Positions 47,177-63,470 of a stretch of 64,000 nt of DNA are shown piece after piece. The translations under genes were made by a program, and so were the position numbers. The notes beneath the pieces were generated by a model. The model was not told the origin of the DNA. It worked only from the letters and a program-made list of their open reading frames with translations, and made no database searches. This DNA is from Patescibacteria group bacterium (lineage in GTDB: Bacteria; Patescibacteriota; UBA1384; CAJBMM01). Where the stretch lies: positions 238,481 through 302,480 of the forward strand of contig JBAZWC010000001.1 of assembly GCA_041660565.1 (NCBI GenBank). The letters run 5' to 3'. How positions within the stretch are numbered: position 1 is the stretch's first letter; the number at the start of each line of letters is the position of its first letter.

Positions 47177-47186
47177 TTCTTCTCCT

Positions 47187-50100: not shown

Positions 50101-50579
50101 ATAATTTTAGCGCCAAATAAGTTGCGGCCGGGCACTTCATCGTTAGCAAAAAGTACGCCATATGAGCGTACAATCTGGGTAACAACCACACGCTCAATAC
50201 CGTTAATAATAAAGGTGCCGCGTTTGGTCATCAACGGGAAATCACCCAAAAAGACATCGCTCTCTTTAATTTCACCGGTTTCTTTGTTCAACAAGCTAGC
50301 GCGAGCCTTAAATGGGGCTTTGTAAGTTAAGTTTTTGTCGCGCGCCATTTCTTCGGTAATGCGCGATTTGTCTAGGGTTGGAGAGCTAAAAGTAAGCGAC
50401 AAGCTTTTGCCGGTAAAATCTTCTATTGGATTAATCTCGTCTAAAAGCTCTTGAACACCTTGCTCAAACAACCATTTATATGAGTTCGTCTGAATTTCGA
50501 TAAGGTTTGGTAACTTGGTGGGGTTTGGATTACCGGATAAATAGATTCTTTCTGGCTTAGTGCTTGCACTTTTACTCAT
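47187..50579 (-). CDS. rpoB: DNA-directed RNA polymerase beta subunit
   Basis: 1130 aa; conserved beta-subunit blocks; agggag RBS before ATG 50579. Confidence 0.95.
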   Translation of the reverse strand: MSKSASTKPERIYLSGNPNPTKLPNLIEIQTNSYKWLFEQGVQELLDEINPIEDFTGKSLSLTFSSPTLDKSRITEEMARDKNLTYKAPFKARASLLNKETGEIKESDVFLGDFPLMTKRGTFIINGIERVVVTQIVRSYGVLFANDEVPGRNLFGAKIIPNRGAWLEVETNAKDVITVKIDRKRRINVTTFLRAFGYANDDAIRDLFKDVDTNPDHQYINATLEKDVTKSEDQAVVEVYKKIRPGDLANPEGARSFLNMLFFNNKRYDLGRVGRYRMNIRLNLQVKDVVENRILRMDDFIAIVKEVIRLNNDPTAKKDDIDHLANRRVRAVGELVQAKIRVGLLRMERIVKDRMSVSDIATVTPAQLVNSRPIMAVLQEFFASSQLSQFMSQTNPLAELGNKRTLSATGPGGLSRERAGFEVRDVHPTHYGRICPIETPEGPNIGLVGYLASYGRVNDYGFIESPYRKVEQIDGKTKVSDKIDYLDAATEERHIIAPASAPIDKDGYFTEVRTLVRRFGEPAVEDTKKIQYIDVSPKQILGISASLIPFIEHDEAARALMGANMQRQAVPVIVPQSPVVGTGMEYEAAYDSGQIIIADESGTVLESTAHHITVLEDDTKEKKVYKLQKFVRSNQATCINQRPIVDVEQHVVKGQVIADSSATDKGELALGQNVLVAFMSWGGGNFEDAIIISERMLHRDRFTSIHIEKYVCEVRDTKLGPEVITQDIPNVSEEALSNLDESGIVRIGAEVETGDILVGKITPKGETELSAEEKLLRAIFGEKAKDVRDASLRLPHGERGKVVEIKLFNKDQGDELPAGVYQQVEISVAQLRKIAVGDKLAGRHGNKGVISTILPVEDMPYMPDGTPVDIILNPLGVVSRMNLGQILETHLGWAANTLNIKVASPVFEGLSWEQIQTYLEKAKLPKTGKIQLFDGRSGAGFDHTTTTGINYIMKLSHLVDDKMHARSVGPYSMITQQPLGGKAQFGGQRFGEMEVWALEAYGAAHTLQEMLTVKSDDTVGRSKVYEAIIKGDPIQKPSIPESFNVLVKELQSLGLSVQLLSDEDAKNFEIHLEEAKKAMAPVSDTGETLEEILNEPVGGMIEDEEAVDKLVTEIGSDDELSEPVAAAEEA

Positions 50580-51035
50580 CACATTTCTCCCTTTGTTATC
50601 GAAACTATATTATTTATATATATTAGATTTGGGTGATAATACGCATCACAGTTTGTCATTTCGACTCCCTCCGGGCGTAGTCTACGGGCAGAGCCTCGAG
50701 CGTTGTCTCGAGGGTGGAGAAATCTTCATAAAGAGTTCTCCTCGGTTCCGTTCTCTGTCCTCTGTCATCTGTTTTCCGAATTTACACAAAACGGCCGGTT
50801 CTGCTTGGATAGCAGAAACAGCCTGCTTAATGTCAGGACTTAAGCCGAAATTATTACCATGAGGCTCCGACGTTTGGCTAATCTATATTTAGGCTATCAA
50901 AAGTTTGATAGCTTGTCAACCCCCTGGCAACGAGGGGTTGCCAAAATTTTAAATTTTAAATTTTAAATTTGAAATTGGTCGAATTTTTGTTTTTAGATAG
51001 TCTTTCACCCGGATTGTCATTCCGGGCTCGACCCG

Positions 51036-51120
51036 GAATCTATATAAATAGAACATCCATACGCAGTTCAAATTATAAATTTCAAAATGTAAATTCACCC
51101 ACCCGCCTTGCTCTTTACTC
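51036..51120. repeat. composite element: type A palindrome + AACATCCATACGCAGT + AT-rich AAATTTCAAAATGTAAATT
   Basis: near-identical composite at 52266-52348. Confidence 0.7.
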
Positions 51121-51190
51121 TTATATATGTTATTATATTGGCATACTGAGCGCCATTGCTCAGAATTCGGTTCACAATAAGGAGTCCGTG

Positions 51191-51481
51191 ATGCGACACG
51201 CTCAAGGCGGGAAAATCCGAGGCAAGCACACGAGCATCATCGACGAGGCCGAGTCGCTGATTAAGGCGGTGGACGGCCTGGCGTGCGTTACTGGAGTGAG
51301 TCTTGGATTCATCCAGCACACCAAAGGGCGCCCAGTCCCGAAGAACCTCAAGTTCCTTGACGTGGATGCCGGGCTGCAACTCACCGTTCGCGCCCCAAAG
51401 ACGGTTCAGACGCTGATTGTCTATACCAGCGACCGAACCGGCACGGCAAAAGCGCTTTGCGAGGCCTTCTACAAGAAGTGA
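51191..51481 (+). CDS. GC-rich small hypothetical protein (96 aa)
   Basis: taaggag RBS + ATG 51191; ~58% GC; ends in a terminator shared with the next cassette. Confidence 0.4.
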   Translation: MRHAQGGKIRGKHTSIIDEAESLIKAVDGLACVTGVSLGFIQHTKGRPVPKNLKFLDVDAGLQLTVRAPKTVQTLIVYTSDRTGTAKALCEAFYKK

Positions 51482-51505
51482 CCTCGCGCCCATCACCATC
51501 CACCA

Positions 51506-51548
51506 GGCCGGCAGTCCACCACGGACTCCCGGCCTAATTCTTTGCTTA
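51506..51548 (+). terminator. rho-independent terminator ggccggcagtccaccacggactcccggcc + taattctttgc
   Basis: nested GC hairpin + T-rich tail; duplicated verbatim at 52046-52090. Confidence 0.6.
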
Positions 51549-51556
51549 TTTATCTT

Positions 51557-51598
51557 GTCATTCCGGTCCGCCGGCTGGCGGATAATCCGGAATCTACA
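51557..51598. repeat. palindromic element type A variant with extended loop (GTCATTCCGGtccgccggctggcggataaTCCGGAATCTACATA)
   Basis: same stem as type A; loop forms its own hairpin. Confidence 0.65.
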
Positions 51599-51696
51599 TA
51601 AAAAGAATCATTCCAAATGTTTTAAAATTAAAAATTAAAAATTTAAAATTTTGCTTATGTCTATCCCCCATCACAATATCGAGTCCAACATTCGTC

Positions 51697-51725
51697 TTGA
51701 CATGATTATATTATTGTAGTATATC
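51697..51725 (+). promoter_or_regulatory. promoter TTGACA-N17-TATATC
   Basis: cttgacatgattatattattgtagtatatc upstream of RBS aaaggg and ATG 51759. Confidence 0.5.
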
Positions 51726-51758
51726 TAAATTATCCTGCAAGTCGAAAGGGTTAGTCCG

Positions 51759-51947
51759 ATGCCAGAGAGAGACACGCAGTCCCGCAGTGGCAGTATCGAA
51801 GTGACAGTGGGCTCCGGCCGCGATGGCGGCACCGGCCAGTCGACGACCGACATGCTGATCATCGATCACGACAGCCGCGACGGTAGCCACGACCACGTGG
51901 TCATCAGCGAGTCCGGCGAGACGCTGCACGACACCACCCGCAAGTAG
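51759..51947 (+). CDS. GC-rich small acidic low-complexity protein (62 aa), hypothetical
   Basis: ~63% GC ORF with its own promoter, RBS and the duplicated terminator. Confidence 0.3.
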   Translation: MPERDTQSRSGSIEVTVGSGRDGGTGQSTTDMLIIDHDSRDGSHDHVVISESGETLHDTTRK

Positions 51948-52045
51948 GAAGTGCACGGAGGGCTAACGCTCACACCGACACTTCCTGGGCAGATACCTCT
52001 ATCGGAGGCGTCTGCCTGTAATCATAGAACAGGGCCTCACCAAAG

Positions 52046-52090
52046 GCCGGCAGTCCACCACGGACTCCCGGCCTAATTCTTTGCCAATTT
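52046..52090 (+). terminator. second copy of the ggccggcagtccaccacggactcccggcc terminator
   Basis: identical 29-nt hairpin + taattctttgcc. Confidence 0.6.
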
Positions 52091-52102
52091 TTGTTTTCCC
52101 CT

Positions 52103-52348
52103 GTCATTCCGGATTTAATCCGGAATCTATTCCTATGGTGTCATTCCCGCGAAGGTGGGAATCCAGCCTATAAAAAACCGTCTTTCTTCTGGATCCCCGA
52201 ATAAAATGTCGGGGATGACAATTTAGTCAAAACCGTGCTCAAAAGAGAACCGTCCCCTATCCTTTGTCATTCCGGGCTCGACCTGGAATCTATATAGATA
52301 AAACTTCCATACACAGTAAAAATTAAAAAATTTAAAATTTAAAATTCC
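52103..52348. repeat. cluster of palindromic elements: type A (52103-52132), type B (52139-52175), type D ATCCCCGaataaaatgtCGGGGATGACA (52192-52224), composite type A + AT-rich (52266-52348)
   Basis: each has a perfect 7-8 bp inverted repeat; type B is near-identical to 19276-19312. Confidence 0.7.
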
Positions 52349-53094
52349 ACGGTCTTAACCGCCTCGGTGTAACCACAATAATCACAACTTGGATTGGCTT
52401 CTGGAATACTATCACTATTCAAACACTCATGTGCTTTAAGCAACGTGCCATCTATCCAACTGTCACTGCCCTTATACGCAATTAGCGTAATATCAAACTC
52501 TAACTTGGCGTCAAACGCGCTTTTGTCTGTGCGCCCGTTGCAATACACAAAATAGCCGGTATCAGAAACCTTGTAACCATTTTGCCTCAAGAGCCACTGA
52601 TACACCTCCATCTGCCGCTTATACCCGTCTTGCCACTCTTTATTAAGCTCGGTTATTTCCTCGGCTTTAGAGGTAGATTTATAATCCACCACAATATATT
52701 CACCTTGTGAGTTCTGCCACAAATCGTCAATTGCACCAAAGACTAAAAAGTTGGTTTTGGGATGCAAAAACTGCACGCCGGTAAAGTTATGCCGCCATTT
52801 TTCTAAATCTTCATGCGCCACCGGCACCGCATCTACTCCGTATTTCTGAATCAGCGGATGTTTGCTACCTTTAGCACGGTAGATATCGAATTCGAGTTTT
52901 AACAGGTGGTCAACGGCGGAGTTTAGGGCAAATGGGAATCCGGGTGGTCTGCCAACCCCTAGCCGGCGGTCTAGGTAGAAACACCGCGGGCATTCGGTAA
53001 ATAGGTCAATTTTGCTGCGGGATAACTTAAACGGCTCTGACGAATTAGGATCGTACAAGCCTTTTACTCGTTGTGGGGTGTAATATTCGTACAT
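52339..53094 (-). CDS. PD-(D/E)xK nuclease, Cas4/RecB-like with FeS-type cysteines
   Basis: GAIDDLW ... IVVDYKST (D...D-x-K); Cys at C35-x2-C38 and C225...C238-x2-C241; 4 nt after the upstream gene. Confidence 0.6.
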   Translation of the reverse strand: MYEYYTPQRVKGLYDPNSSEPFKLSRSKIDLFTECPRCFYLDRRLGVGRPPGFPFALNSAVDHLLKLEFDIYRAKGSKHPLIQKYGVDAVPVAHEDLEKWRHNFTGVQFLHPKTNFLVFGAIDDLWQNSQGEYIVVDYKSTSKAEEITELNKEWQDGYKRQMEVYQWLLRQNGYKVSDTGYFVYCNGRTDKSAFDAKLEFDITLIAYKGSDSWIDGTLLKAHECLNSDSIPEANPSCDYCGYTEAVKTVEF

Positions 53095-53097
53095 GAT

Positions 53098-55914
53098 TTA
53101 TAATTCTTTCTTAAAATCTAATTTCCTGGCTCTCTGCCGCAACGCCTCTTTACCACCCTCGAGCACATCAATTATCCTGTCTCTGATTTCTATATTTTCA
53201 ATAGAACCGGTTAGGTAATCAAAGTTATATTTTCCCGCGCTATGTCTTGAATTACTTGATACCAACACCTCTTCTGAATCAGCACAAACAACCAAACTTC
53301 CGTTATGAGAAACAATAATAATTTGCCTATCCTCCTTTTCGGACTTTATAAAGTTGACAAGGTCAGTCGCTACGCCACCAACGTCTAAGTCATCTTCAGG
53401 CTGATCTATTAATATAGGATACTTTTCGTCATCAAATCTAAATACCAACTCGAGCAAGGCAATTGCTTTTTGCCCTCCTGTCATATCCTTAAAAGCCGTG
53501 TCATTCTCCTTGGTTTTTACCGAGTTAAGATAATCAATCTCGTATCGGTTCTTTATTAATTGGGAAATTACCTGTGAAACATCAGATGCGTCAACCTTGA
53601 TTTTAATCTTGTTATTCACGAGATTAACTATTACTTTCCTAAGAGTATCATTACTTAACTGAGCAGTACTCTCACCAAAGAATTGAGTAATATCTGGTTC
53701 CTGCTTTAAGCTTGCGTCTGTGTCACGGGTGTTAATGTTTCGCTCCACGAACCTCTTTAGATCTTCGCTATTATATTCTGTGACAATATCAATATTCAGG
53801 AATGTAAATAGGTCATCAAACCGCACGGTTTCAAATACTGTTTTACGCTGATAATCATACTCTTTGTATATGTTGATTAAGGAATCGATTGCCTCTTTTT
53901 GCTGTACGTCTGATTGTTGAAGAATCTTTGTAAGTTCATCAATTTTTTTAATCGTATCCTGAAGTCCTGCTAGCTCCTTAGTCAATGTCTCGAGGGCCGT
54001 ATTTAGTTTGATTTTCTCATTGAGTGTACTAACGATCGCGCTATTCTCCTTGATAACTGTTTCGCAACTGTTAATTTCAGTTTTAATACTATCAATCTCT
54101 GCTTTTATTAGAACACTCAAACTTTCTTTTCCTTTTCTGACCAATTCATCGCGAATTAATTTCTGTCTCTCGAGTGAGAGTCTGCTAAATTCCTGGTTTG
54201 ATACATAGACTCCTGCGCCCGTCTTATCAAGAGTCTCAAGGATTGTTTTGTCCTGAGACAGCAGCAGAAGGAATTTCTGATTATCAGCAATGAGGCTCTT
54301 AGCATCCGAGTATTCTTTAATTTCCTCATCAGATATAGATGTGCTACCTGAGACCTTATATTTTTTAATTTCAACATTTTTATTTGCAATTTCTTTTTCA
54401 ATCTCAATTTTCGATCCTTGTTTTCTTATAAGAAGTGCGGTTTCGTTATTAGTAGATTTGGCTGATAGCAAGCTTTCAATTAATGCCTCTGCTTTAACTT
54501 TGTTATTTGAAGTTAACTCTTCGTAAACTTGAATCGCATTCGCAAACAATGAATGCTTTTTAAGTAATCGGGTTAAGAACTGATCCCTTTCTGCCGCTTT
54601 ATCCCCATCGTCATACGCTAAGGAACTCAAATAATTTTGGGGTATATAAAAAACGCTTTTTGGGCTGTCATTGCTACCATGATCTTCCTGCCCATCAACC
54701 CATATAACTTTCACCGAATCTAATGGATACAGATTGGCGGGCTTATCTTTTTCAGTAAATTGTGCTGGATCGACATTATGCGCGATATTTCTTAGCAACG
54801 TAGACTTCCCGCTACCGCGAACACCGATGATTGAGTTAAGATCCTGGTTAAACACAACAGTTTTGTCCTGTTGATCAGCGTTCTTGTATGTAGCTCTATC
54901 AATTATTATCCGCCCTGACTTACTATCGCCAGGATTTCTTTCCTGGATTCGTACTCTATCCTTTGGTTCCCATAAAACCTGTTTTAAACCTTCAAAACTT
55001 GTATCCGCTTTTATCCAGCAAAATAGATTATTATCTGGATTAAATAATTTTGCTTCCGTATGGGCATCGCATCCGTGAACGCAAGGTTTTAATGATCCGC
55101 ATTTACTAATAACTGTTTCCCTGTCATCGGTTTTTTCTCCCAGAAAGTATCGTCTATCTTCAGGATTGCCGGAAAAGATTGCATTAGAAATAGTATAAAT
55201 AGATTTTCTTACAGCATCGAGTTGGCTTGCAGCATCATTTTCAAATAGATCGTAATGTTTTTGTAAACCCGAAGCACCATCTACACAGGAATTACTAACT
55301 ACAATAATTACCTTCTCGCGGAAGTTGGCGTTAGCTTCATAAAGGGCATGTAATTGGCTGTGATCGACGACAAACGAATCTATCCCTTTTTTGTAAGCGG
55401 CTACATCACTTAAGTTTGAATCGATAAATTTTCCCAACCCTATAAACCCAGCTTGATTCATTTTGAACTTTCGGCCAGGCTCAGCAGCATACTCTATAGA
55501 ATTAAATAGATCGTTGTCTATATTTGCAACAAAATCAGGATTAAGTATACAGTGTATATTCACGAGCCGCCCATGATCTGTAGAGGGCATCATTCGCAAC
55601 TCGATGTTTGGTATAATAAATATTTCTTTGATCTTCACTTTTTCCTCTGGTAAGAATACAGGCTCGCCAGATTCGTTTGTTTCATGGAAACTGTCAATAT
55701 TATCGACGAACTCTTTAACCTTTTTGTAGTTATCAATATTAAAATAGTCAGTAATTCCAATTACGACGATTTCTTTTGATAACGCTTCCCTTAATAGAGT
55801 CGTGCAAAACTGGCCGAAGGATTGACTTGTAAACCTATCATTTTTAGCAGTATCTTTTGTATGAACATGTAGATCCCACCTTGCCCATATTGAACCGCGA
55901 GGATTGTTACGCAT
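53098..55914 (-). CDS. PHP-domain phosphoesterase fused to SMC/Rad50/SbcC-like ABC ATPase with long coiled coil (Ppl-like)
   Basis: N-term WDLHVHT (PHP motif); GVRGSGKSTLL Walker A; ~450-aa coiled-coil; MTGGQKA signature; PILIDQPEDDLD Walker B/D-loop; IIIVSHN H-loop. Confidence 0.7.
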   Translation of the reverse strand: MRNNPRGSIWARWDLHVHTKDTAKNDRFTSQSFGQFCTTLLREALSKEIVVIGITDYFNIDNYKKVKEFVDNIDSFHETNESGEPVFLPEEKVKIKEIFIIPNIELRMMPSTDHGRLVNIHCILNPDFVANIDNDLFNSIEYAAEPGRKFKMNQAGFIGLGKFIDSNLSDVAAYKKGIDSFVVDHSQLHALYEANANFREKVIIVVSNSCVDGASGLQKHYDLFENDAASQLDAVRKSIYTISNAIFSGNPEDRRYFLGEKTDDRETVISKCGSLKPCVHGCDAHTEAKLFNPDNNLFCWIKADTSFEGLKQVLWEPKDRVRIQERNPGDSKSGRIIIDRATYKNADQQDKTVVFNQDLNSIIGVRGSGKSTLLRNIAHNVDPAQFTEKDKPANLYPLDSVKVIWVDGQEDHGSNDSPKSVFYIPQNYLSSLAYDDGDKAAERDQFLTRLLKKHSLFANAIQVYEELTSNNKVKAEALIESLLSAKSTNNETALLIRKQGSKIEIEKEIANKNVEIKKYKVSGSTSISDEEIKEYSDAKSLIADNQKFLLLLSQDKTILETLDKTGAGVYVSNQEFSRLSLERQKLIRDELVRKGKESLSVLIKAEIDSIKTEINSCETVIKENSAIVSTLNEKIKLNTALETLTKELAGLQDTIKKIDELTKILQQSDVQQKEAIDSLINIYKEYDYQRKTVFETVRFDDLFTFLNIDIVTEYNSEDLKRFVERNINTRDTDASLKQEPDITQFFGESTAQLSNDTLRKVIVNLVNNKIKIKVDASDVSQVISQLIKNRYEIDYLNSVKTKENDTAFKDMTGGQKAIALLELVFRFDDEKYPILIDQPEDDLDVGGVATDLVNFIKSEKEDRQIIIVSHNGSLVVCADSEEVLVSSNSRHSAGKYNFDYLTGSIENIEIRDRIIDVLEGGKEALRQRARKLDFKKEL

Positions 55915-58750
55915 TAGTAATCCTTAATAGTCCGGGCACTGTTGAGTGAACCGTTATCCTATCAGTCGGGACAATAATGTATCTCCATGGTTTTATAATG
56001 CCATTAGATCCAATATTTCTCGAAACCAGATCACAATACTTCTCAGCTGTCTTCTTTTTCTCTTGAACATTATGGGCCAGTATTTCACTTTCTGGTTTCA
56101 CTTCAACCATTACAATTTCATGCTCCAATTCGACTACAAAATCTGGTTCATATCTATGTTGCGATTCACCGTTTTCGTCACGCCAGTATAAGCCTTCAAA
56201 CTGATTGGGTGCCGGTCGAAGCCAATCTATGACAGATCCATCCCTTTCTAGAAGATACGCTAAGCGAACTTCGTCCGAGGAATCAAATCGATATTTAGAA
56301 TGACAGGCTTTTTGAAACTTGCCATAAAGCAGTTTGGCGTTAAATGTATCCACCTGCGAATCAAGAAAAACAACCTTTTCATCAAAAGATTCGGAAATAT
56401 TGTACTGTTCCAGATATGGTTTTGGTTCTCGTATATCCGATTCAAGATATCCTTCAGACTTTAGCTCCTTATGTTCTAAAATCTGCTTATAGATATCCTC
56501 GGCGATTGAACGTGCGTTACTTTCAATTATTAAGGCCAAATTATCCTCGTCGATTGCCTTTTTACGGTAATATACCACTGCTTGTTCCGCCAACTTGAGA
56601 AGTAATGGTTTTTGAGCTGGGTCATCATAATCAACCAACGGAAAGTCCAATAGTGCAGCGATTATCGTGCTTTGTGGGGATTGCCTATAATGCGCTCCAA
56701 AACTACTGATTCTCGTCACCTCGCTCACCCTGCGACCAGGGACTTCTTCTCCGAATAGGTTTTCCTCATGCTCATTCTGTAGTTGCTCTTCAAGAATAGC
56801 CCGTTCGTTGGTATAGGTACGCAACATTCCAAAACTTGTATCTAAGTCAAAATGTTCAATGGATAGCTCTCCAAAATGTGGAGTGAGAATTAGGCGCGGA
56901 ATGGGTATATTTCTTTTTTCCATTGTTGCGGCAGATTCTTTTGCAATCTTAGAAAGTTCATCTTTTACCTCATCGCTGAAAGAACCAAACAGAGTATCGG
57001 GGCCAAATGAGATCTCTGTGGGCGCACCAGATTCCTGACCGTAATAATTAGAAAATGTGAGGCTCTTGATCGTCTCTCTAGTCAACCCGCCAACAATTTC
57101 ATCTTTCTTAGCCTCGGCGAATCTTTCTCTGACAGATTCATCCATACTTTCACTTTGAGGGAAGCTAGCAACAATCGCTTCAACCTTCTCGTCTACTGCC
57201 CGCATCACCAAATTATTTTGGGTTATCTCCCTCATTAGAACATCAAGAATCACCGGTTGGACTTCGGCTAATACTTTAACCTCTTTTGCCTCGCGTTCAG
57301 ATATCTGCTCTACCTGTCCTTGAATAAGTGGTGAATCTTTAGCAAGCGCAACTACTTTAGAATACTGTTCATGGGCAACAAGCACTAATCTATCCACCAA
57401 AGGAACGCCGGTTCGTTCTCCGTAAGGCAATCGCAAACCGCGCCCAATGGTTTGCTCAGTTAGAATTGCAGCGGCTGATTCACGTAGGGGCGCGATGGTA
57501 TAGACGTTTGTAACATCCCAGCCCTCTTTAAGCATGTTGACATGAATCACAATCTCAATCGGATTGTCGGGATGCTCAAGAGAGATTAGTTTCTCAATAT
57601 TTTCATCAGCCTCATCCCCGCGAAGTCTTGTATGTATTTCAATTACTTTTCCGGCAAACTCTCCGGCACGGAAGTTCTCACTTTCAATCAGGTTTCTTAG
57701 CTCTCCTGCATGCGTTGTGTCTTTAGCCACAACCAGCATAACTGGCTTTACAACCGATCTATTGTTTTCTAGCGCATATTCTTTTAAGGCATTCTTAGCT
57801 CGTTCGTGAAAAAAGGCGGCTAGTTGTAATTTACGGGCATCAGTATCAATCGAATCCGGATCAAATTGGCTGAAATCCACATCAGCTTCAGTACCGATCC
57901 ACGGATCCTTAACTAGTTTACCTCGAATGGCATCACCAAGATTATATGAATACAAAACATTTTTCATTCTGGTCTGAGTTGCATTTCTGCCTGTGCCTTG
58001 AGTGCCCAAATAAGGCGTTGCAGTCATCTCCAAGCCAAATAGAGGATCGAGTATATCAAGTGCCCCAAGCGCGGCATCAGCGTGGTAATGATGGGCTTCA
58101 TCAAGCATGACCACTAAATCGTCGTGTTCCTTAAGGTAATCAAAATACGACTCGCCAGCTGTTTCCCAAGCTTTCGTTATACCTCGTTCATTGGTCATGT
58201 CTCTCTGGGCAAACTGCTGAACATTAAAGATATTTATCTCAATCTGGTTGCCAAAAAGAGTGTACCCGCGCTGTTTTGTATAGTTATCAACTGTAATTAC
58301 CTTGGCTGTGTTGATATTTATCTCTTGGATACCTTTGAAAACATACTTTGGGTTATTTGCTTTACTAAAATCATCAAATAGCTTTCGGTAGATAGTTAGG
58401 TTGGGGGCAACTATCAAAAAGTGCTGGATGTTATAAACCAAGTATAAATACGCTACAAAAGCACCCATTAATCTGGTTTTACCCACTCCAGTGGCCAGAG
58501 CGAAAGTGTAAGCGGGGAATTTTCGCTCAAATTCCTCAAACCCGCGCGCTTCAGGGACAGTGCTAAAATATTCTCTGCTTGTTTCCAATATTTCAGCAGT
58601 ATCGCCTCGATTCGTTTTCTTCATGCGGGCTAACACCCTTTGCCCAGCTTCTGATTGTAAGTAATTAGCAAATATCTCTAAACTTTTGAGCTGCGGATCG
58701 CGCAGGCTCATTGCATTGTTGATATATACAAGTGCTTCTTGTGGAGTCAT
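55907..58750 (-). CDS. Type III restriction Res-like protein: DEAH helicase + C-terminal PD-(D/E)xK endonuclease
   Basis: FALATGVGKTRLMGAF (motif I), VVMLDEAHHY (DEAH), TIGRGLRLPYG (motif VI), C-term YEPDFVVELEHEIVMVEVKPE. Confidence 0.75.
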   Translation of the reverse strand: MTPQEALVYINNAMSLRDPQLKSLEIFANYLQSEAGQRVLARMKKTNRGDTAEILETSREYFSTVPEARGFEEFERKFPAYTFALATGVGKTRLMGAFVAYLYLVYNIQHFLIVAPNLTIYRKLFDDFSKANNPKYVFKGIQEININTAKVITVDNYTKQRGYTLFGNQIEINIFNVQQFAQRDMTNERGITKAWETAGESYFDYLKEHDDLVVMLDEAHHYHADAALGALDILDPLFGLEMTATPYLGTQGTGRNATQTRMKNVLYSYNLGDAIRGKLVKDPWIGTEADVDFSQFDPDSIDTDARKLQLAAFFHERAKNALKEYALENNRSVVKPVMLVVAKDTTHAGELRNLIESENFRAGEFAGKVIEIHTRLRGDEADENIEKLISLEHPDNPIEIVIHVNMLKEGWDVTNVYTIAPLRESAAAILTEQTIGRGLRLPYGERTGVPLVDRLVLVAHEQYSKVVALAKDSPLIQGQVEQISEREAKEVKVLAEVQPVILDVLMREITQNNLVMRAVDEKVEAIVASFPQSESMDESVRERFAEAKKDEIVGGLTRETIKSLTFSNYYGQESGAPTEISFGPDTLFGSFSDEVKDELSKIAKESAATMEKRNIPIPRLILTPHFGELSIEHFDLDTSFGMLRTYTNERAILEEQLQNEHEENLFGEEVPGRRVSEVTRISSFGAHYRQSPQSTIIAALLDFPLVDYDDPAQKPLLLKLAEQAVVYYRKKAIDEDNLALIIESNARSIAEDIYKQILEHKELKSEGYLESDIREPKPYLEQYNISESFDEKVVFLDSQVDTFNAKLLYGKFQKACHSKYRFDSSDEVRLAYLLERDGSVIDWLRPAPNQFEGLYWRDENGESQHRYEPDFVVELEHEIVMVEVKPESEILAHNVQEKKKTAEKYCDLVSRNIGSNGIIKPWRYIIVPTDRITVHSTVPGLLRITNA

Positions 58751-58753
58751 GGC

Positions 58754-60526
58754 CTAGTCGCTTTCCTCATCATTTTCTAATTCTTCCATAGCTGTTTCCT
58801 TAATTGGCAGTAAGTATTCTTTCTTGCCAAAATGACAGGCTTTCAGCACTGATTGTGGAATCTTCTTGATCGTAATTCGACTATCAATTTTTTCCGCGCC
58901 GGGCTCAAACTTCTTGGGACAAATAATCAATGATTCGCCATCGGAAAGATGGCCCACAATCTGTTGAACCATTCCGCATGTTAAGAGTTGGGTTGTGACA
59001 TAAAGGTAGTTCTTACCTTGGCCCATACCGTGTTTCCAATATTCAGTTTGGCTTGGCTGATAAGTGAAATTCATCAGCTTGCACATGGCTTTAATAAGCT
59101 TTGTATCGTTGTAATAATCGTCAATTATTGGGTTACCAAACTCATCTTTGATGATAAAACTTGGGGCTAACTCATAGAATTTGTATGCACCTCCACCTTG
59201 CCATTCTAAGGTTTTACTGATACCACCTTGATCTAGACCGCTAATGACCTTATCTAATCTTACCTTGCAGTGTGTGAATGCATGATCGCCCATTTCAATT
59301 CCAAGATATCTACGTCTCATTTTATGTGCGACAGCGCATGTTGTACCAGAGCCCAGGAAAGAATCTAGTACGATATCATCCTCATTTGTAGACATTCGTA
59401 TTATTCTCTGTAGCAGTGATTCCGGCTTTTTACCGTTTGGGAAAAGTACCCCGCCTTCTTTTGTAACATTAATCCAGCTAAAACCATCCCAGTAGGTACC
59501 AATTTTTTCCTTTTTGTATATCTTTCCTTTTAAAAGTGTTGCGGTATCTTTGAGCCAAATCACAAGAACTTTTTGTTTTCCCATAAAAATAATATCTATT
59601 TTATTATCTTTATTTCTTCCGGACTTGGGGCTATAAGAAGCAATGAACATATTATTTTCACTATCCGTAGCATCCCAAACTCTGGTTCTGATCGATGTTT
59701 GAGCATTTGTTGTGGTAATTATTTTGTCAAAATATTTTATATACACTTCATTCTCAGAAATGCCTTCAAGCTGAGCTATTTGTTTTACGCTTTTTATGTC
59801 GTAACTTTTAACTTCGGATATTACTATATCATCGCCGCTTCCGTCCTTAATGATTTTATACGGAACGACATTATCAATCTTATAAAGTACGGAGGTGTAT
59901 TTAAAACTTTTTTCGTCATCTTTCATTCGAGCAATATAACTCATCAGCTCTGTTTCCTTATAAACAGGTTCAAACGGCAAAAAAGAATTTGTTTCTTTGC
60001 AATATACTAATATATATTCAATGTTCTTCTTTAGCCTTATATCTTCACCGCCCCCACTGGCACCGGCACTAACTTTTGAATTCACCGAGATAGTATTGAT
60101 AAAGTTATTTCTTCCAAAAACTTCATCCATTAATACCCTAAGATACGGTTGCTCAACATCATCAATTTGAATAAAAATAATTCCATCTTCTTTAAGAAGC
60201 ATCCTCAATAATTCTAGCCTTGGTTTCATCAAGGATAGCCAAGTACTATGCTCTACGCTGTCATCGTAGTACTCAAATGCGTTACCGGTGTTATATGGCG
60301 GATCAATATATATACATTTTATTTTACCCTCATATTCAGGGAGTAGAGCTTTTAGTGCGAGAAGATTATCCCCGTGAATAATCATATTCTCGGTATTTGG
60401 ATCATTGGCACAATTTGAAAGCTCAGGGTTTTCTTCTAAGATTCTTGGCTCGATGTTAGCAATATCGTACTCGGGATTATTTTTCCCAATCCAGGTTAGT
60501 TCTAGTTTTTGTTTGTTGTTTGTCAT
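58754..60526 (-). CDS. beta-class N6-adenine/N4-cytosine DNA methyltransferase (Type III Mod-like)
   Basis: CIYIDPPYNTG (motif IV) N-terminal to DSFLGSGTTCAVA (motif I); IIHGDNLLALKAL. Confidence 0.8.
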   Translation of the reverse strand: MTNNKQKLELTWIGKNNPEYDIANIEPRILEENPELSNCANDPNTENMIIHGDNLLALKALLPEYEGKIKCIYIDPPYNTGNAFEYYDDSVEHSTWLSLMKPRLELLRMLLKEDGIIFIQIDDVEQPYLRVLMDEVFGRNNFINTISVNSKVSAGASGGGEDIRLKKNIEYILVYCKETNSFLPFEPVYKETELMSYIARMKDDEKSFKYTSVLYKIDNVVPYKIIKDGSGDDIVISEVKSYDIKSVKQIAQLEGISENEVYIKYFDKIITTTNAQTSIRTRVWDATDSENNMFIASYSPKSGRNKDNKIDIIFMGKQKVLVIWLKDTATLLKGKIYKKEKIGTYWDGFSWINVTKEGGVLFPNGKKPESLLQRIIRMSTNEDDIVLDSFLGSGTTCAVAHKMRRRYLGIEMGDHAFTHCKVRLDKVISGLDQGGISKTLEWQGGGAYKFYELAPSFIIKDEFGNPIIDDYYNDTKLIKAMCKLMNFTYQPSQTEYWKHGMGQGKNYLYVTTQLLTCGMVQQIVGHLSDGESLIICPKKFEPGAEKIDSRITIKKIPQSVLKACHFGKKEYLLPIKETAMEELENDEESD

Positions 60527-60530
60527 AGCT

Positions 60531-63470
60531 TTATATTACCTTAAACCGGATGGAAAATAAGGGCGTGAGCGTTGTTTTCTGCTTAAGTTGAGCTTCTACT
60601 CTTTCAAGAAGCCCCTCTTTTTTGGTTTCAACCTCATCCTGTGATTGATAAAGTTTCATGCGCATATTGTTCCGTTTCTTTTCAGTGTCTTTAATCTCGC
60701 GTTGAAGTTTAACTTTTTCTGCTAGATTTAAGACCTTTTTCGCATTTGTCTTCATTGTTTTTATATCAATATCGAGTCGCTTCAGCTCTATTTCTAAACT
60801 TTTTTTCATATCCTCTGCCCATTTATCGAGCTTGTCTACTTCATCTTCAAAGAACTCACCATTACGTTCGGCAATATCAATAGTGAGACCATTTACCTTT
60901 TCCTGTTCCAATTGTTGTACTTCTGCATTTACTGTTACTACATTATTCTGGGCAACCTCTGCCTTCAAGGAAAATAGCTTTTTCGCCACATCTTCATCAA
61001 TTTGAGTCCCATCATCCGTTAGAGCAGTTAATATGAGATTATCTTCGGTTTCAAATGAGCCAATGGTGAGCTCTGATACTTGCAGATAACCAGAAGTGCC
61101 TACCAGCTCACTTACTGGGGTAATAATCTGTCCGTGGTTTGAATAATCGAATACGAGTTCGGCGCTGGGTAGATTAATTGCTTTGACTTCACGCAAAATA
61201 TGCTCGGCCAGTGGATGGCCTGGGCGATAGATATGCGCGTCATCAATATTTTTGCCAATTTTATATGGGCCTTCTTCAATGTCTTCACCGGGGAATGGAT
61301 TATTTTTTAGTGTAAAAGAGTATTCGCCATCAGCATATATTGCTCTGTTTCCTAAATAGTGCTGTGAAACATCCCAGAGCCACTTTTCATATGTTTCTAG
61401 AAAAGCCTTGCTCTCTCGTAAATTGATTTTTAGTTTTTCATGAACATCAGCATCGAAGTTCTCCAGAAGCTTTTCTTTAGCGCCACGCATACCTTCTTGA
61501 ATCGACTCGTCCATTTCTGTCTGCAGGGCATCAAAAGCAGTGTTTATCTCTACCTCTGTACGGCAAGACTGATATATTGCAGCGATTCGTTTTTCAAAAT
61601 CTACACCAGATTCAATACTTCCAAGTACTTCATCACTTGCCCCAAATACCCCTTTAAAAAGTTTGAATTTTTGATCAAGAAGTTCGTAAACGCGCTGATC
61701 GGCAGCGTTCTTGCGGTTTACAAAATTTACCACAACCACATCGTGCTTTTGGCCATAACGATGACAGCGACCGATTCTTTGCTCAATTCTTTGCGGGTTC
61801 CACGGGAGATCATAATTAATAACTAGTGAACAGAATTGTAGGTTAATGCCTTCAGCTGCAGCTTCCGTCGCAATCATTATTTCCGCATCAGATTTGAAAT
61901 AGTCTACCAGAGCTGCACGTAGGTCTGCGGTCTTTGACCCTGTAATTTTGTCACTATCAGCGTTTTTCTTAAGCCATTCAGCGTAAATATCTTTGGATTT
62001 CTGATCATTATTAGAGCCGTTAAATAGCAGTATTTTATCTTTGTAGCCGATATCTGATAGTAAATCCCATAGATATTTTTGAGTGATAGTAGATTCAGTA
62101 AAGATTACCGCTTTTTTCTGGGCTCCAAGCGTTGCGGTCATTTCAAAACCTTTTTCTAATGCAATAAGCAGGGATTCTCCTTTGGAATTTTTGAAAATTG
62201 CTTTGGCCAAATCTCTAAACTTTTCCAAATCCTTTTTTTCTGTTTTGATATGAGGAATATCTTCAAGCGTGTATTTCTTCTTAGCTTTTCCTTTACCCTC
62301 AGGCTCATCTTCCTCATCATCAATCCACTCGTCTGCTGTATCCGCAAGCGCCTCATAATTTTCAGCAAGATCGAACGGGAGTTCATCATTTATAGTCTTG
62401 GACTCTTCTCGGATCTCTTCCTCCAATTTTTCAAGTTTATAAACCAGGCCATTCAAGGTGCTGGCAATTGCAAAAGAAGATGAGGCGAGAAGCTTACGCA
62501 AAATTAGCGTCATAAGTTGACGTTGGCTGTATGGGAGCGCGTATAGCTTTGGCCGCTGTAAATATTCTGACATACCATCATATAGCTCAATCTCTTGATC
62601 GGTAGGCACGTAATCTTGGGTGATTGGCTTGCGATCACGAAAATTTATGTATTCCAAAACCTGACGTCGTAAGGTGCGGATACAGATTGGTCTCAATCTG
62701 GCGCGCAAATCAGCGAACATTTCCTGCTTTGGCTCTACTAAACCTAACTCCCCATCGTAAATATCTTGTTCACGGGATACTTTAGCGTAGTTTGCTTTGA
62801 AGCTTTCTAGATCACCGAAGATATGGTCATCAATAATACTGGTAAGGCCGTATAGCTCTAATAATGAGTTTTGGAGTGGAGTCGCCGTAAGTAATAATTT
62901 GGGATATTCCTGAATTGCGTCCTTAATTTCTCTTGCAATTTTGTTGCTTGTTTTATAGACATTGCGCAGTCGGTGTGCCTCATCGATTACTACCAAGTCG
63001 AAAGTTGTCTGGCGGATATACGCTGATTTACCTTTGGCAAAATGGTATGAGCAAATAACAATCGCGTCTTCTTGGCTGAAGGGATTAAGATTGCCGGCTT
63101 TTATGATTTGATTAAATGATTTAGTCTCCAGAATTAGTGAGGGTAGAAAGAATTTTTCTTGGAGCTCACTGTTCCACTGCTTTCTAAGGCTTGATGGAAC
63201 TATTAAAAGTATTTTTCTTTTTCGTTCAGCCCACTTTTGAGATAAAACCAAACCAGCTTCAATGGTTTTCCCCAAACCAACCTCGTCTGCAAGAATTGCT
63301 CCTTTTGATAAGGGTGATTTAAAGGCGAACAGAGCGGCCTCTATCTGGTGAGGGTTTAGATCAACCTGTGCGTTTGAAAGCGTAGAAGATAGTTTTTCAA
63401 GACTATTTGACGGGCTGCGCTTGGTCAGCTCGTAAGCAAAGTATTTTGCATGATAATCGGTTAATTTCAT
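60531..63470 (-). CDS. SNF2-family helicase (DrmD-like)
   Basis: ILADEVGLGKTIEA, VVIDEAHRLRN, LLLTATPLQNS, NPQRIEQRIGRCHRYGQKHDVVVVNFV. Confidence 0.85.
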   Translation of the reverse strand: MKLTDYHAKYFAYELTKRSPSNSLEKLSSTLSNAQVDLNPHQIEAALFAFKSPLSKGAILADEVGLGKTIEAGLVLSQKWAERKRKILLIVPSSLRKQWNSELQEKFFLPSLILETKSFNQIIKAGNLNPFSQEDAIVICSYHFAKGKSAYIRQTTFDLVVIDEAHRLRNVYKTSNKIAREIKDAIQEYPKLLLTATPLQNSLLELYGLTSIIDDHIFGDLESFKANYAKVSREQDIYDGELGLVEPKQEMFADLRARLRPICIRTLRRQVLEYINFRDRKPITQDYVPTDQEIELYDGMSEYLQRPKLYALPYSQRQLMTLILRKLLASSSFAIASTLNGLVYKLEKLEEEIREESKTINDELPFDLAENYEALADTADEWIDDEEDEPEGKGKAKKKYTLEDIPHIKTEKKDLEKFRDLAKAIFKNSKGESLLIALEKGFEMTATLGAQKKAVIFTESTITQKYLWDLLSDIGYKDKILLFNGSNNDQKSKDIYAEWLKKNADSDKITGSKTADLRAALVDYFKSDAEIMIATEAAAEGINLQFCSLVINYDLPWNPQRIEQRIGRCHRYGQKHDVVVVNFVNRKNAADQRVYELLDQKFKLFKGVFGASDEVLGSIESGVDFEKRIAAIYQSCRTEVEINTAFDALQTEMDESIQEGMRGAKEKLLENFDADVHEKLKINLRESKAFLETYEKWLWDVSQHYLGNRAIYADGEYSFTLKNNPFPGEDIEEGPYKIGKNIDDAHIYRPGHPLAEHILREVKAINLPSAELVFDYSNHGQIITPVSELVGTSGYLQVSELTIGSFETEDNLILTALTDDGTQIDEDVAKKLFSLKAEVAQNNVVTVNAEVQQLEQEKVNGLTIDIAERNGEFFEDEVDKLDKWAEDMKKSLEIELKRLDIDIKTMKTNAKKVLNLAEKVKLQREIKDTEKKRNNMRMKLYQSQDEVETKKEGLLERVEAQLKQKTTLTPLFSIRFKVI

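What the first reader, a model, noticed from the sequence alone, without database searches (positions are those of the whole stretch)
53098..55914. PHP phosphoesterase fused to a Rad50/SbcC-like coiled-coil ABC ATPase
The N-terminus has the PHP HxH motif (WDLHVHT). This is followed by Walker A (GSGKST), a very long predicted coiled coil, then the ABC signature (TGGQK), Walker B/D-loop (ILIDQPEDDLD) and H-loop (VSHN). This mirrors the SbcC/SbcD (Rad50/Mre11) logic, but the nuclease is a PHP domain fused in cis rather than a separate calcineurin-like SbcD. It resembles the Ppl (PHP-ATPase) single-gene defense family, here embedded in a larger operon and translationally coupled to the Res-like gene.
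Basis: partly seen in the sequence, partly recalled or inferred. Interest (0 to 1): 0.7.

Follow-up and report, generated by a model that had tools for sequence, protein, structure and literature searches.

The report
Ppl-like nuclease-ATPase inside restriction operon
This gene encodes a member of the already named TrlF/Ppl family of anti-phage proteins (a PHP nuclease fused to a nucleotide-binding clamp), and here it sits as swappable cargo inside a type III restriction-modification operon of a tiny Patescibacteria genome.

Summary

The protein is not a new kind. It passes NCBIfam's curated 'TrlF family AAA-like ATPase' model (468 bits, cut-off 350). E. coli Ppl itself passes the same model (476 bits). 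The window protein fails the narrow Ppl model (107 bits against 1000).

The catalytic glutamate after Walker B is an invariant glutamine (DQPED) in 72/72 TrlFs and in Ppl. This points to a nucleotide-binding switch rather than a Rad50-type motor.

The gene overlaps the type III Res gene by 8 nt, in an operon of DrmD-like SNF2, Mod, Res and TrlF, followed by a Cas4-like gene. A related operon with a 65%-identical SNF2 carries a reverse transcriptase in the same slot, and a more distant Mod-Res operon carries an AAA_13 ATPase there. Close TrlF homologues also stand alone.

TrlF is therefore best read as an embedded Ppl-like second-line defence module. The kind is known; the context is moderately interesting.

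The parts
53098..55914 (-). TrlF/Ppl-family protein, 938 aa: PHP nuclease domain, ABC ATPase N-lobe, helical insert, ABC ATPase C-lobe
   Evidence: ORF. NF045780 TrlF_fam_ATP 468 bits against a cut-off of 350, aa 6-932 on model positions 1-943 of 944. AlphaFold model with pLDDT 85.5.
54925..55899 (-). PHP (polymerase/histidinol-phosphatase) phosphoesterase domain, about aa 6-330. Motifs HxH (H16, H18), E105, H121 and D283-x-H285.
54604..54912 (-). ABC ATPase N-lobe, about aa 335-437, with Walker A GVRGSGKST (nt 54799-54825) and Q-loop Q426
   Evidence: Profile match to the Rad50 and AriA N-lobes.
53830..54603 (-). Helical (coiled-coil-like) insert, aa 438-695. No CxxC hook.
   Evidence: DSSP on the model: helices 438-451, 455-499, 502-518, 529-565, 581-636, 639-695. 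No CxxC, and a single Cys at aa 617.
53101..53829 (-). ABC ATPase C-lobe, aa 696-938: signature TGGQK, Walker B ILIDQ (nt 53383-53415; Q838 stands where the catalytic Glu should be), D-loop, H-loop VSHN
   Evidence: 34% identity to the E. coli Ppl C-lobe, E=6e-18.
55907..58750 (-). Type III restriction subunit Res, 947 aa: SF2 helicase motifs GVGKT and DEAH, plus a C-terminal TnsA-like PD-(D/E)XK nuclease. Its stop codon overlaps the TrlF start by 8 nt.
   Evidence: Pfam ResIII 5.6e-20 and Tn7_TnsA-like_N. PADLOC REase_III 401 bits..
58754..60526 (-). Type III Mod N6-adenine methyltransferase, 590 aa (DPPY at aa 75, FLGSG at aa 390)
   Evidence: Pfam N6_N4_Mtase 6.8e-45. PADLOC MTase_III 478.7 bits, full length..
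60531..63470 (-). DrmD-like SNF2 helicase, 979 aa, first gene of the operon
   Evidence: SNF2-rel_dom and Helicase_C. NF038318 DrmD_b 691.6 bits, below its cut-off of 950. PADLOC DrmD 686 bits.
52339..53094 (-). Cas4/RecB-like PD-(D/E)XK nuclease, 251 aa, with four invariant Cys, 3 nt downstream of TrlF. Probably a conserved Patescibacteria anchor gene, not a partner specific to TrlF.
   Evidence: PDDEXK_1 2e-14. Conserved D123/D124, D137-Y-K139, Q161..Y165, C35, C38, C237, C240. Homologues at 60-84% identity have housekeeping or varied defence genes upstream.

Best explanation
The gene encodes a TrlF/Ppl-family anti-phage effector in one polypeptide. A PHP metal-dependent nuclease domain is fused to an ABC nucleotide-binding head that is split by a helical dimerisation arm.

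Shown here: the fold, the motifs, family membership, the operon position and the variable occupancy of that position.

Inferred step 1. The residue that normally catalyses ATP hydrolysis is an invariant Gln. So the head most likely acts as a nucleotide-occupancy switch (heads engaged when ATP/NTP is bound), not as a motor.

Inferred step 2, by homology to E. coli Ppl. Ppl is reported to be a 3'-5' ssDNA exonuclease that bound NTPs hold off and that needs free 3'-OH ends. By analogy, the PHP domain would degrade DNA from free 3' ends once nucleotide levels fall during infection.

Inferred step 3, from context. The gene sits in a variable cargo slot at the 3' end of a DrmD-like SNF2 / type III Mod / Res operon and is co-translated with Res. 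It would act as a second line of defence. Cuts made by Res in unmethylated phage DNA (or phage-made nicks and ends) would supply the DNA ends it attacks, and it would still work if the phage blocks or evades restriction.
For: Family and architecture:
- NF045780 scores 468 bits against a cut-off of 350, full length. E. coli Ppl scores 476.5 bits on the same model.
- BLASTP to Ppl gives 34% identity over 128 aa (6e-18) and 33% over 106 aa (6e-10). The shared motifs are GS.W..D.H.HT, GSDAH, CW.K, GSRGSGKST and LDQPEDDLD.

Folds:
- SMC/Rad50-like head.

Switch idea: Gln after the Walker B Asp is found in 72/72 TrlFs. This includes 16 retrieved without that motif in the search pattern. Ppl has it too.

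Ppl mechanism: taken from the review PMC12904381.

Defence role of the family: TrlF sits beside Gabija-like genes, an Abi gene and CcdAB on a Klebsiella plasmid. 963 plasmid records hold a match. Serine recombinases, conjugation genes and a phage terminase-like gene are frequent neighbours.

Embedding:
- 8-nt overlap with Res.
- TrlF lies on the same strand within RM or SNF2 arrays in 21 of 73 full-length loci, in at least 10 separate tree lineages, with type I, IIG and III systems.
- The slot is variable. L096 has an SNF2 65% identical to the window's, then Mod, Res, a reverse transcriptase and the Cas4-like gene. L100 has Mod, Res, an AAA_13 ATPase and the Cas4-like gene.
- The same scaffolds embed GmrSD, AAA_15+PIN and DUF4391.
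- Stand-alone TrlFs exist at 59%, 46%, 41% and 38% identity.
- Embedding of autonomous defences in modification-based systems is a documented pattern (bioRxiv 10.1101/2024.01.29.577857).
Against: No experiment exists for this protein or for any TrlF outside Ppl.

In Photorhabdus, no temperature-tolerance mutation mapped to trlF, and its function was left open (PMC7554251).

The Ppl mechanism comes from one review sentence. The primary paper was not in the library.

The PHP site differs from Ppl at one presumed ligand. The window protein and 61/73 TrlFs have Tyr57 where Ppl and 12/73 TrlFs have His. Substrate, polarity and metal number could therefore differ.

E840, two residues after Q838, is conserved (69/73) and could serve as an alternative catalytic base. 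Hydrolysis is therefore not excluded.

Gene order is conserved, and the genes overlap, among TrlFs 46-66% identical to the window's, while P0016 at 62% identity has the Cas4-like gene ahead of TrlF. This also fits TrlF being an integral subunit rather than independent cargo.
Confidence: 0.6

Rival explanations
1. TrlF is an integral subunit of a distinct multi-gene restriction-like system (SNF2 helicase + methyltransferase +/- Res + TrlF). It would play the role that the DUF499 ATPase plays in Hma/BREX-related systems. SNF2 and Res would find unmethylated DNA and cut it. The TrlF clamp would load on the ends and its PHP nuclease would carry out processive degradation. The system would fail without TrlF.
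For: SNF2 + MTase + TrlF arrays recur on one strand in Patescibacteria, Gammaproteobacteria, Corynebacterium, Treponema, Deferribacteraceae and Leptospiria.

Start/stop overlaps with the preceding Res or MTase gene occur in the window, L001, L071 and L045.

The order HTH / PLD-SNF2 / IIG-MTase / TrlF is kept across TrlFs 46-66% identical to the window's.

There is a formal parallel with the helicase-methylase-ATPase tripartite Hma/BR systems (PMC12839542).
Against: The closest scaffold relative (SNF2 65% identical, with Mod, Res and the Cas4-like gene) has a reverse transcriptase in place of TrlF, and another has an AAA_13 ATPase.

TrlFs 59% and 46% identical are solitary genes. So are the plasmid TrlFs and Ppl.

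RM-linked TrlFs are scattered over the family tree rather than forming a clade.

Type III Mod+Res is a complete restriction system on its own (established knowledge).
Confidence: 0.2
2. TrlF is a guard of the restriction system, by the logic of PrrC, RloC or PARIS. It would be kept latent by contact with Mod/Res, or by the absence of a trigger. A phage anti-restriction protein (for example a DNA mimic) would switch it on, and it would then destroy DNA or RNA indiscriminately and abort the infection.
For: ABC-ATPase effectors embedded in RM loci are the classic guards (PrrC in EcoprrI; discussion in 10.1101/2024.01.29.577857).

AriA of PARIS is among the closest solved sequence and structure matches.

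An AAA_13 ATPase occupies the same slot in L100.

TrlF is found with type I, IIG and III systems alike.

RNase AM, an RNA exonuclease, is a top PHP match.
Against: Solitary TrlFs and Ppl work, or at least exist, without any RM partner.

The reported Ppl triggers are nucleotide depletion and 3'-OH ends, not anti-restriction proteins (PMC12904381).

No sensor domain for a phage protein is evident beyond the helical insert.
Confidence: 0.12
3. TrlF is a housekeeping DNA-repair enzyme, a PHP-based analogue of SbcCD/Mre11-Rad50 that processes hairpins and double-strand ends. It would lie next to the restriction genes only by accident.
For: SMC/Rad50 heads are the best structural matches. The nuclease + ABC + helical arm layout resembles SbcCD. 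Patescibacteria have reduced repair gene sets (general knowledge).
Against: The distribution is patchy and linked to mobile elements: plasmids, recombinases and conjugation genes.

There is no zinc hook, the arm is short and Gln replaces the catalytic Glu.

The gene has lower GC than flanking rpoBC (37% against 43-47%).

Ppl, a family member by the same HMM, is an anti-phage gene.
Confidence: 0.05

Closest known systems
TrlF family AAA-like ATPase (NCBIfam NF045780), named after trlF of the Photorhabdus laumondii temperature-restriction locus
   Same: The full-length match is above the curated cut-off (468 against 350). Length is the same (about 940 aa). The PHP / ABC / helical insert / ABC order is the same, as is the DQPED Walker B. 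PGAP gives this name to homologues 28-29% identical on Klebsiella, Enterobacter and E. coli plasmids.
   Different: The archetype lies in a trlR-trlF-trlG operon (small regulator, AlbA_2/HATPase_c_4 protein), not in an RM operon. Its own function is unknown, because the temperature phenotype mapped only to trlG (PMC7554251). The window protein is a distant (<30% identity) Patescibacteria member embedded in a type III RM/SNF2 array.
Ppl (anti-phage protein Ppl, NF042955; E. coli WP_052921425.1)
   Same: The domain order and motifs are the same, including Gln after Walker B. Ppl also passes the TrlF model (476.5 bits). Ppl is a validated single-gene defence, reported as an NTP-inhibited 3'-5' ssDNA exonuclease that senses 3'-OH ends (PMC12904381).
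   Different: The window protein scores only 106.6 bits on the Ppl model (cut-off 1000). The PHP core and the helical insert are not alignable by BLAST. Tyr57 replaces the Ppl His. Ppl is a solitary gene on IncF plasmids, whereas this gene overlaps a Res gene.
Rad50/SbcC-Mre11/SbcD and SMC heads
[quoted passage not shown]
   Same: It is an ABC-ATPase effector on the same strand, inside or at the end of an RM-like operon, at a slot that holds other defence genes in related operons.
   Different: [quoted passage not shown] Here the host is a type III RM with a DrmD-like SNF2. The text of that paper mentions Ppl only as one ABC-ATPase defence in a list, not as an embedded gene.
Hma / DUF499-centred BREX-related systems and class 1 DISARM
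   Same: They share the theme of helicase (SNF2) + methyltransferase + large ATPase. The window's SNF2 is DrmD-like (692 bits on NF038318). The closest TrlF relatives sit with HKD/PLD-SNF2 + N6-MTase, as in type-2 BR systems.
   Different: There is no DUF499/BrxC ATPase, no DUF3780, and no DrmA, DrmB or DrmC. DrmD_b scores below its cut-off. A full type III Res is present instead.

Membership tests
TrlF family AAA-like ATPase (NF045780) | Full-length match to the curated HMM at or above its cut-off (350 bits) | tested here: met
   468 bits, E=1e-139, aa 6-932 on model positions 1-943 of 944
TrlF family AAA-like ATPase (NF045780) | N-terminal PHP phosphoesterase fold with conserved HxH, E, H and DxH | tested here: met
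TrlF family AAA-like ATPase (NF045780) | ABC ATPase split by a helical insert, with Walker B hhhhDQPE(D/E) | tested here: met
   K370 73/73, Q426 73/73, D837-Q838 72/72. Helices 438-695.
Ppl (NF042955 equivalog) | Match to the curated Ppl HMM at or above 1000 bits | tested here: not met
   106.6 bits, C-terminal part only. PADLOC Ppl 90.8 bits, aa 575-930. The positive control, E. coli Ppl, scores 1330.9 bits.
Ppl (NF042955 equivalog) | PHP + NTPase single-polypeptide architecture | tested here: met
Ppl (NF042955 equivalog) | Solitary single-gene system | tested here: not met
   The gene overlaps Res and lies in an operon of four defence genes followed by a Cas4-like gene. Homologues at 59% and 46% identity are solitary.
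Ppl (NF042955 equivalog) | NTP-inhibited 3'-5' ssDNA exonuclease activity; anti-phage phenotype | not testable with these tools
   Needs biochemistry and phage assays. The property is taken from PMC12904381.
Rad50/SbcC (SMC-like DSB-repair ATPases) | ABC head motifs and an SMC/Rad50-like head fold | tested here: met
Rad50/SbcC (SMC-like DSB-repair ATPases) | Long antiparallel coiled coil ending in a CxxC zinc hook | tested here: not met
   The insert is about 260 aa. There is no CxxC anywhere in the protein, and a single Cys (617) in the insert. No conserved Cys in this region.
Rad50/SbcC (SMC-like DSB-repair ATPases) | Catalytic Glu immediately after the Walker B Asp | tested here: not met
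   D837-Q838, with Gln in 72/72 family members
Rad50/SbcC (SMC-like DSB-repair ATPases) | Separate Mre11/SbcD calcineurin-like nuclease partner | tested here: not met
   No Metallophos-type gene among the five operon genes
Type III restriction-modification system (host operon) | Mod methyltransferase (DPPY, FxGxG) plus Res with SF2 helicase motifs and a C-terminal PD-(D/E)XK nuclease | tested here: met
   PADLOC MTase_III 478.7 bits and REase_III 401.5 bits. Pfam N6_N4_Mtase, ResIII and TnsA-like_N. Motifs.
DISARM (class 1) | DrmD above cut-off, together with DrmA, DrmB (DUF1998) and DrmC | tested here: not met
   DrmD_b scores 691.6 bits against a cut-off of 950. There are no DrmA, DrmB or DrmC matches among the operon proteins.
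Hma / DUF499-centred BREX-related systems | DUF499 (BrxC-like) ATPase + N6-MTase + SNF2 helicase | tested here: not met
   No DUF499/BrxC hit. HmaA-type similarity is limited to the SNF2 gene, at 162.6 bits. Definition from PMC12839542.

The most novel reading that the evidence does not exclude
SNF2 helicase + DNA methyltransferase (+/- Res) + TrlF could be a distinct, phylum-spanning type of restriction-like immunity, not a case of mere embedding. A non-hydrolysing, nucleotide-gated SMC-like clamp with a cis PHP nuclease would be the dedicated executioner. It would be loaded onto the DNA ends or stalled complexes that the methylation-sensing SNF2/Res machinery produces. This would link restriction to the nucleotide state of the infected cell.
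Probability: 0.2. Interest if true: 0.65.

Novelty: new member of a known kind. Interest (0 to 1): 0.4.

Why it matters
At the protein level this is a distant Patescibacteria member of a family that NCBI already names. One branch of that family, Ppl, is a validated anti-phage nuclease. The fusion itself is therefore not a discovery.

Three points add value.

1. The whole TrlF/Ppl family carries a natural Gln at the ABC catalytic-base position. This is a clear, testable clue that these proteins sense nucleotides rather than burn ATP.

2. TrlF-family genes recur inside type I, IIG and III RM/SNF2 operons in many phyla. In Patescibacteria they occupy a slot that holds reverse transcriptases, AAA_13 ATPases or GmrSD in sister loci. 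This extends 'guilt by embedding' to type III systems and to ultra-small bacteria whose genomes are dense in defence genes.

3. A Cas4-like gene conserved across Patescibacteria marks the downstream edge of these variable arrays. It could serve as a handle for mining new defence cargo.

Tried and rejected
1. Pfam detection of PHP. There was no hit even at E<=10 on the isolated N-terminal 331 aa. Structure resolved the question instead.

2. Sequence search of the PDB for a solved Ppl or TrlF. None was found. The best hits were AriA and Rad50 fragments.

3. TrlF and the Cas4-like nuclease as a dedicated two-nuclease end-resection pair. This looked attractive at first, because the Cas4-like gene is adjacent in six loci, even where the TrlF lineage is swapped (L040). 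I rejected it as a specific partnership.
- The Cas4-like gene has thousands of homologues, and at least the best 120 hits (76-84% identical) plus 80 metagenome loci (60-79%) are 60-84% identical to it.
- Its upstream neighbour is often housekeeping (cyclophilin three times, an EPSP-synthase/MurA-like gene, DUF5671) or a different defence gene (HsdR, GmrSD, RT, AAA_13).
- It is absent from all non-Patescibacteria TrlF loci.

4. DISARM and Hma/BR membership of the operon: defining components are missing.

5. A monophyletic clade of RM-linked TrlFs: the neighbour-joining tree shows them scattered. The tree is crude (BLOSUM distances, no support values).

6. A literature search for a primary Ppl mechanism paper, and for any description of TrlF in RM operons: only a review sentence and the Photorhabdus TRL paper turned up.

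7. An RNA gene or tRNA in the 1.75-kb gap next to the operon: none found.

8. An exact-sequence look-up of the window's Cas4-like protein: not on record.
Full report
**Observation**

The window has a 938-aa ORF at exactly 53098..55914, on the minus strand. The plus-strand reading is full of stops.
- WDLHVHT, aa 13-19
- GVRGSGKST, aa 364-372
- TGGQK, aa 812-816
- ILIDQPEDDLD, aa 834-844
- VSHN, aa 868-871

The gene starts 8 nt before the stop codon of the upstream Res-like gene (ATGCGTAA), with an AAGGA just upstream. The other junctions of the gene row are 4, 3 and 3 nt. So this is one tightly packed minus-strand operon.

**Family**

NCBIfam places the protein in NF045780, 'TrlF family AAA-like ATPase'. 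It scores 468 bits against a curated cut-off of 350, aligned end to end. The narrower models fail: Spaf_1101 gives 125 bits against 475, and Ppl gives 107 against 1000. PADLOC's Ppl model hits only the C-terminal third.

I fetched a PGAP-annotated E. coli Ppl (WP_052921425.1) as a control. It scores 1331 bits on the Ppl model and also 476.5 bits on the TrlF model. Ppl is therefore a sub-branch of the broad TrlF family, and the window protein belongs to that family as firmly as Ppl does.

Pairwise, the two proteins align only at the end of the PHP domain plus Walker A (33% over 106 aa, 6e-10) and in the C-lobe (34% over 128 aa, 6e-18). Their domain order and signature motifs are the same.

The name TrlF comes from the Photorhabdus temperature-restriction locus trlR-trlF-trlG. 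There, all tolerance mutations mapped to trlG, and TrlF's role was left open (PMC7554251).

The family is large:
- 1139 representatives of 50%-identity clusters at E<=1e-30
- at least 582 species-level genomes across many phyla, including one archaeon
- 963 plasmid records with a match, 175 of them near full length

**Folds**

Pfam does not see a PHP domain, even in the isolated N-terminus. The full-length AlphaFold model is good (pLDDT 85.5, pTM 0.70).

Foldseek against the PDB returns two groups:
- SMC, MukB, JetC, Rad50, LmuB and AriA heads (5e-10 to 1e-4)
- PHP phosphoesterases (3e0f and 3o0f at 1.4e-4; RNase AM 9etk at 2.8e-4)

The presumed metal ligands H16, H18, E105, H121, D283 and H285 are conserved in 61-73 of 73 homologues. 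One position differs: Tyr57 in the window protein and in 61/73 TrlFs, against His in 12/73 and in Ppl.

In ABC ATPases the residue after the Walker B aspartate is the catalytic glutamate. Changing it to glutamine is the standard way to trap ATP-bound, engaged heads without hydrolysis; that is established knowledge. An AriA variant reading LIDQPE instead of LIDEPE is among the PDB hits and looks like such an engineered mutant.

In this protein the position is Gln838. It is Gln in all 72 aligned TrlFs from many phyla. This includes 16 sequences that lack the exact Walker B search pattern, so presumably came in through the N-terminal one. E. coli Ppl also reads LLLDQPEDDLD.

The helical insert is about 260 aa, has no CxxC hook and contains a single Cys. 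No Mre11/SbcD-type gene lies in the operon.

So the protein looks like Rad50 in fold, but three Rad50/SbcC hallmarks are not met. The head is better read as a nucleotide-occupancy switch. This agrees with what a 2026 review reports for Ppl: a 3'-5' ssDNA exonuclease that NTPs inhibit by binding both the PHP and the NTPase domains, and that is activated by nucleotide depletion plus 3'-OH ends (PMC12904381). I could not reach the primary paper. A conserved E840 two residues downstream could still act as a base, so hydrolysis is not excluded.

**Context in the window**

The operon reads as follows, on the minus strand:

| Coordinates | Gene | Key evidence |
|---|---|---|
| 63470-60531 | DrmD-like SNF2 helicase | 692 bits on NF038318, below its cut-off of 950 |
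| 60526-58754 | Type III Mod | DPPY; PADLOC MTase_III 479 bits |
| 58750-55907 | Type III Res | GVGKT, DEAH, C-terminal TnsA-like PD-(D/E)XK; REase_III 401 bits |
| 55914-53098 | TrlF | see above |
| 53094-52339 | Cas4/RecB-like nuclease | four invariant Cys |

The operon is not DISARM, because DrmA, DrmB and DrmC are absent. It is not an Hma/BREX-related system either, because there is no DUF499 ATPase (definition in PMC12839542).

The organism is a Patescibacteria MAG (100% match to an NCBI MAG protein). The operon lies 1.75 kb from rpoB-rpoC. Its GC is 36-44%, and 37-38% over trlF, against 43-47% for rpoBC. That fits horizontal acquisition.

**Context elsewhere**

The closest TrlFs sit in a different scaffold. 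The homologues at 66%, 64% and 46% identity have HTH regulator, PLD/HKD-SNF2 helicase, MmeI/Eco57I-like methyltransferase, TrlF, the Cas4-like gene, and sometimes a trypsin-like protease. One of them has a GmrSD gene inserted. The 62% homologue has the same genes, except that the Cas4-like gene precedes TrlF and no HTH gene precedes the helicase. Other homologues, at 59%, 46%, 41% and 38% identity, are solitary genes next to recombinases or Mrr-like genes.

I took 80 species-level genome loci and called ORFs in them. Same-strand SNF2, type III Mod/Res, type IIG or type I genes accompany TrlF in 21 of 73 full-length loci. Examples are SNF2-Mod-Res-TrlF in Halioxenophilus, a gammaproteobacterial MAG and Corynebacterium macginleyi. 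On a neighbour-joining tree these RM-linked loci are scattered over at least 10 lineages. The tree is crude and partner detection is BLAST-based, so these counts are lower bounds.

On a Klebsiella plasmid, TrlF is a single gene between a Gabija-like pair and an Abi gene, near CcdAB.

**The slot**

I searched for the Cas4-like protein. Thousands of homologues turned up (8000 scored at E<=1e-10). The best 120 are 76-84% identical and, where a source names them, from Patescibacteria. They are much better conserved than anything else in the operon. Their contexts decide the question.

| Locus | Arrangement | Identity to the window's genes |
|---|---|---|
| L096 | SNF2, RhuM, Mod, Res, reverse transcriptase, Cas4-like, TIR | SNF2 65%, Mod 41%, Res 38%, Cas4-like 79% |
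| L100 | Mod, Res, 863-aa AAA_13 ABC ATPase, Cas4-like | Cas4-like 77% |
| L098 | Cas4-like gene alone among housekeeping genes | Cas4-like 79% |

In 80 further metagenome loci, the gene just upstream of the Cas4-like gene falls into two groups:
- housekeeping: cyclophilin (three loci), an EPSP-synthase/MurA-like gene, DUF5671
- defence: HsdR, GmrSD (two loci), RT, TrlF (L106), and an unknown 1059-aa protein after Mod-Res

Other SNF2/MTase scaffolds that hold TrlF also embed GmrSD, an AAA_15 + PIN pair, DUF4391 or an AAA_15 ATPase.

So the position between Res and the Cas4-like gene is a variable cargo slot. TrlF is one of several alternative occupants. The Cas4-like gene is a conserved edge marker, not a partner specific to TrlF. 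[quoted passage not shown]

**Mechanism and confidence**

Shown: the folds, the motifs, family membership, operon coupling and the variable slot.

Inferred: TrlF is a Ppl-like, nucleotide-gated, DNA-end-directed PHP nuclease that acts as an embedded second line of defence. It could use the ends made by type III cleavage or by phage enzymes. I give this about 0.6.

| Rival | Confidence |
|---|---|
| Integral executioner subunit of a distinct SNF2-MTase-TrlF system | 0.2 |
| PrrC/PARIS-type guard triggered by anti-restriction | 0.12 |
| Housekeeping SbcCD analogue | 0.05 |

**Novelty**

The protein is a new, distant member of a known and named family. One branch of that family is experimentally characterised. 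The Rad50/SbcCD analogy and the implied novelty of the fusion are overstated.

In the literature available to me I found no prior description of three things:
- the family-wide Walker B Gln
- the recurrent embedding of TrlF-family genes in type I, IIG and III RM/SNF2 operons across phyla
- the variable slot, marked by a Cas4-like gene, in Patescibacteria

These raise the interest somewhat above 'ordinary annotation'.

Noticed in passing
window 52339-53094 (minus strand); loci L096, L098, L100, L101-L180: The Cas4/RecB-like gene downstream of TrlF is 60-84% identical in the best 120 protein hits and in 80 metagenome loci sampled, with thousands of homologues in all. Its upstream neighbour alternates between housekeeping genes (cyclophilin, an EPSP-synthase/MurA-like gene, DUF5671) and many different defence genes (HsdR, GmrSD, RT, AAA_13 ATPase, TrlF). 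It looks like a conserved anchor beside a defence hot spot.
   Followed up: partly
window 50583-52338: About 1.75 kb lies between the Cas4-like gene and rpoB. No ORF there hits Pfam. GC is 51% against 41-45% around it. There is no tRNA and no Rfam match. It could be a decayed gene, an unknown small protein (the C-terminal half of ORF 50969-51481, plus strand, looks protein-like) or an uncharacterised RNA.
   Followed up: partly
window 53401-53403 (codon Q838); alignment of 73 TrlFs; L095:2694-5369 (E. coli Ppl): Every TrlF-family member examined, and Ppl, has Gln in place of the ABC catalytic Glu after Walker B (DQPED). This is a natural equivalent of the laboratory 'EQ' hydrolysis-dead mutation.
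   Followed up: yes
window 55744-55746 (codon Y57): Tyr replaces a His that is present at this PHP position in E. coli Ppl (ISDHNS) and in 12 of 73 TrlFs. The metal-site composition may therefore differ within the family.
   Followed up: no
L096:7571-8995 and L096:9756-11054; L100:6406-8997: Sister operons carry other genes at or next to the TrlF position. L096 has a reverse transcriptase (RVT_1) followed, after the Cas4-like gene, by a TIR-domain protein. L100 has an 863-aa AAA_13 ABC ATPase. These are possible uncharacterised defence cargo in Patescibacteria.
   Followed up: no
L130:6820-9999: A 1059-aa protein with no Pfam match occupies the slot between type III Res and the Cas4-like gene in another metagenome contig. 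It is a candidate novel embedded defence gene.
   Followed up: no
L024:9574-9954 and L028:9579-9953: A conserved ORF of about 125 aa with no Pfam match lies between Res and TrlF in two gammaproteobacterial SNF2-Mod-Res-TrlF operons. It is absent from the window.
   Followed up: no
L040 (contig CAYGCQ010000023.1, labelled uncultured Pseudomonadales): This contig shares several gene families beyond the defence genes with the Patescibacteria-like contig L001, and it carries the Patescibacteria-type Cas4-like gene at 75% identity. It is probably mis-binned.
   Followed up: no
window 43361-50582: rpoB (47187-50582) and rpoC (43361-47239) lie immediately downstream of the defence operon on the same strand. 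No L10/L12 domains were found in the ORFs tested between the operon and rpoB, whereas in L098 the Cas4-like gene lies about 6 kb from rplJ-rplL.
   Followed up: no
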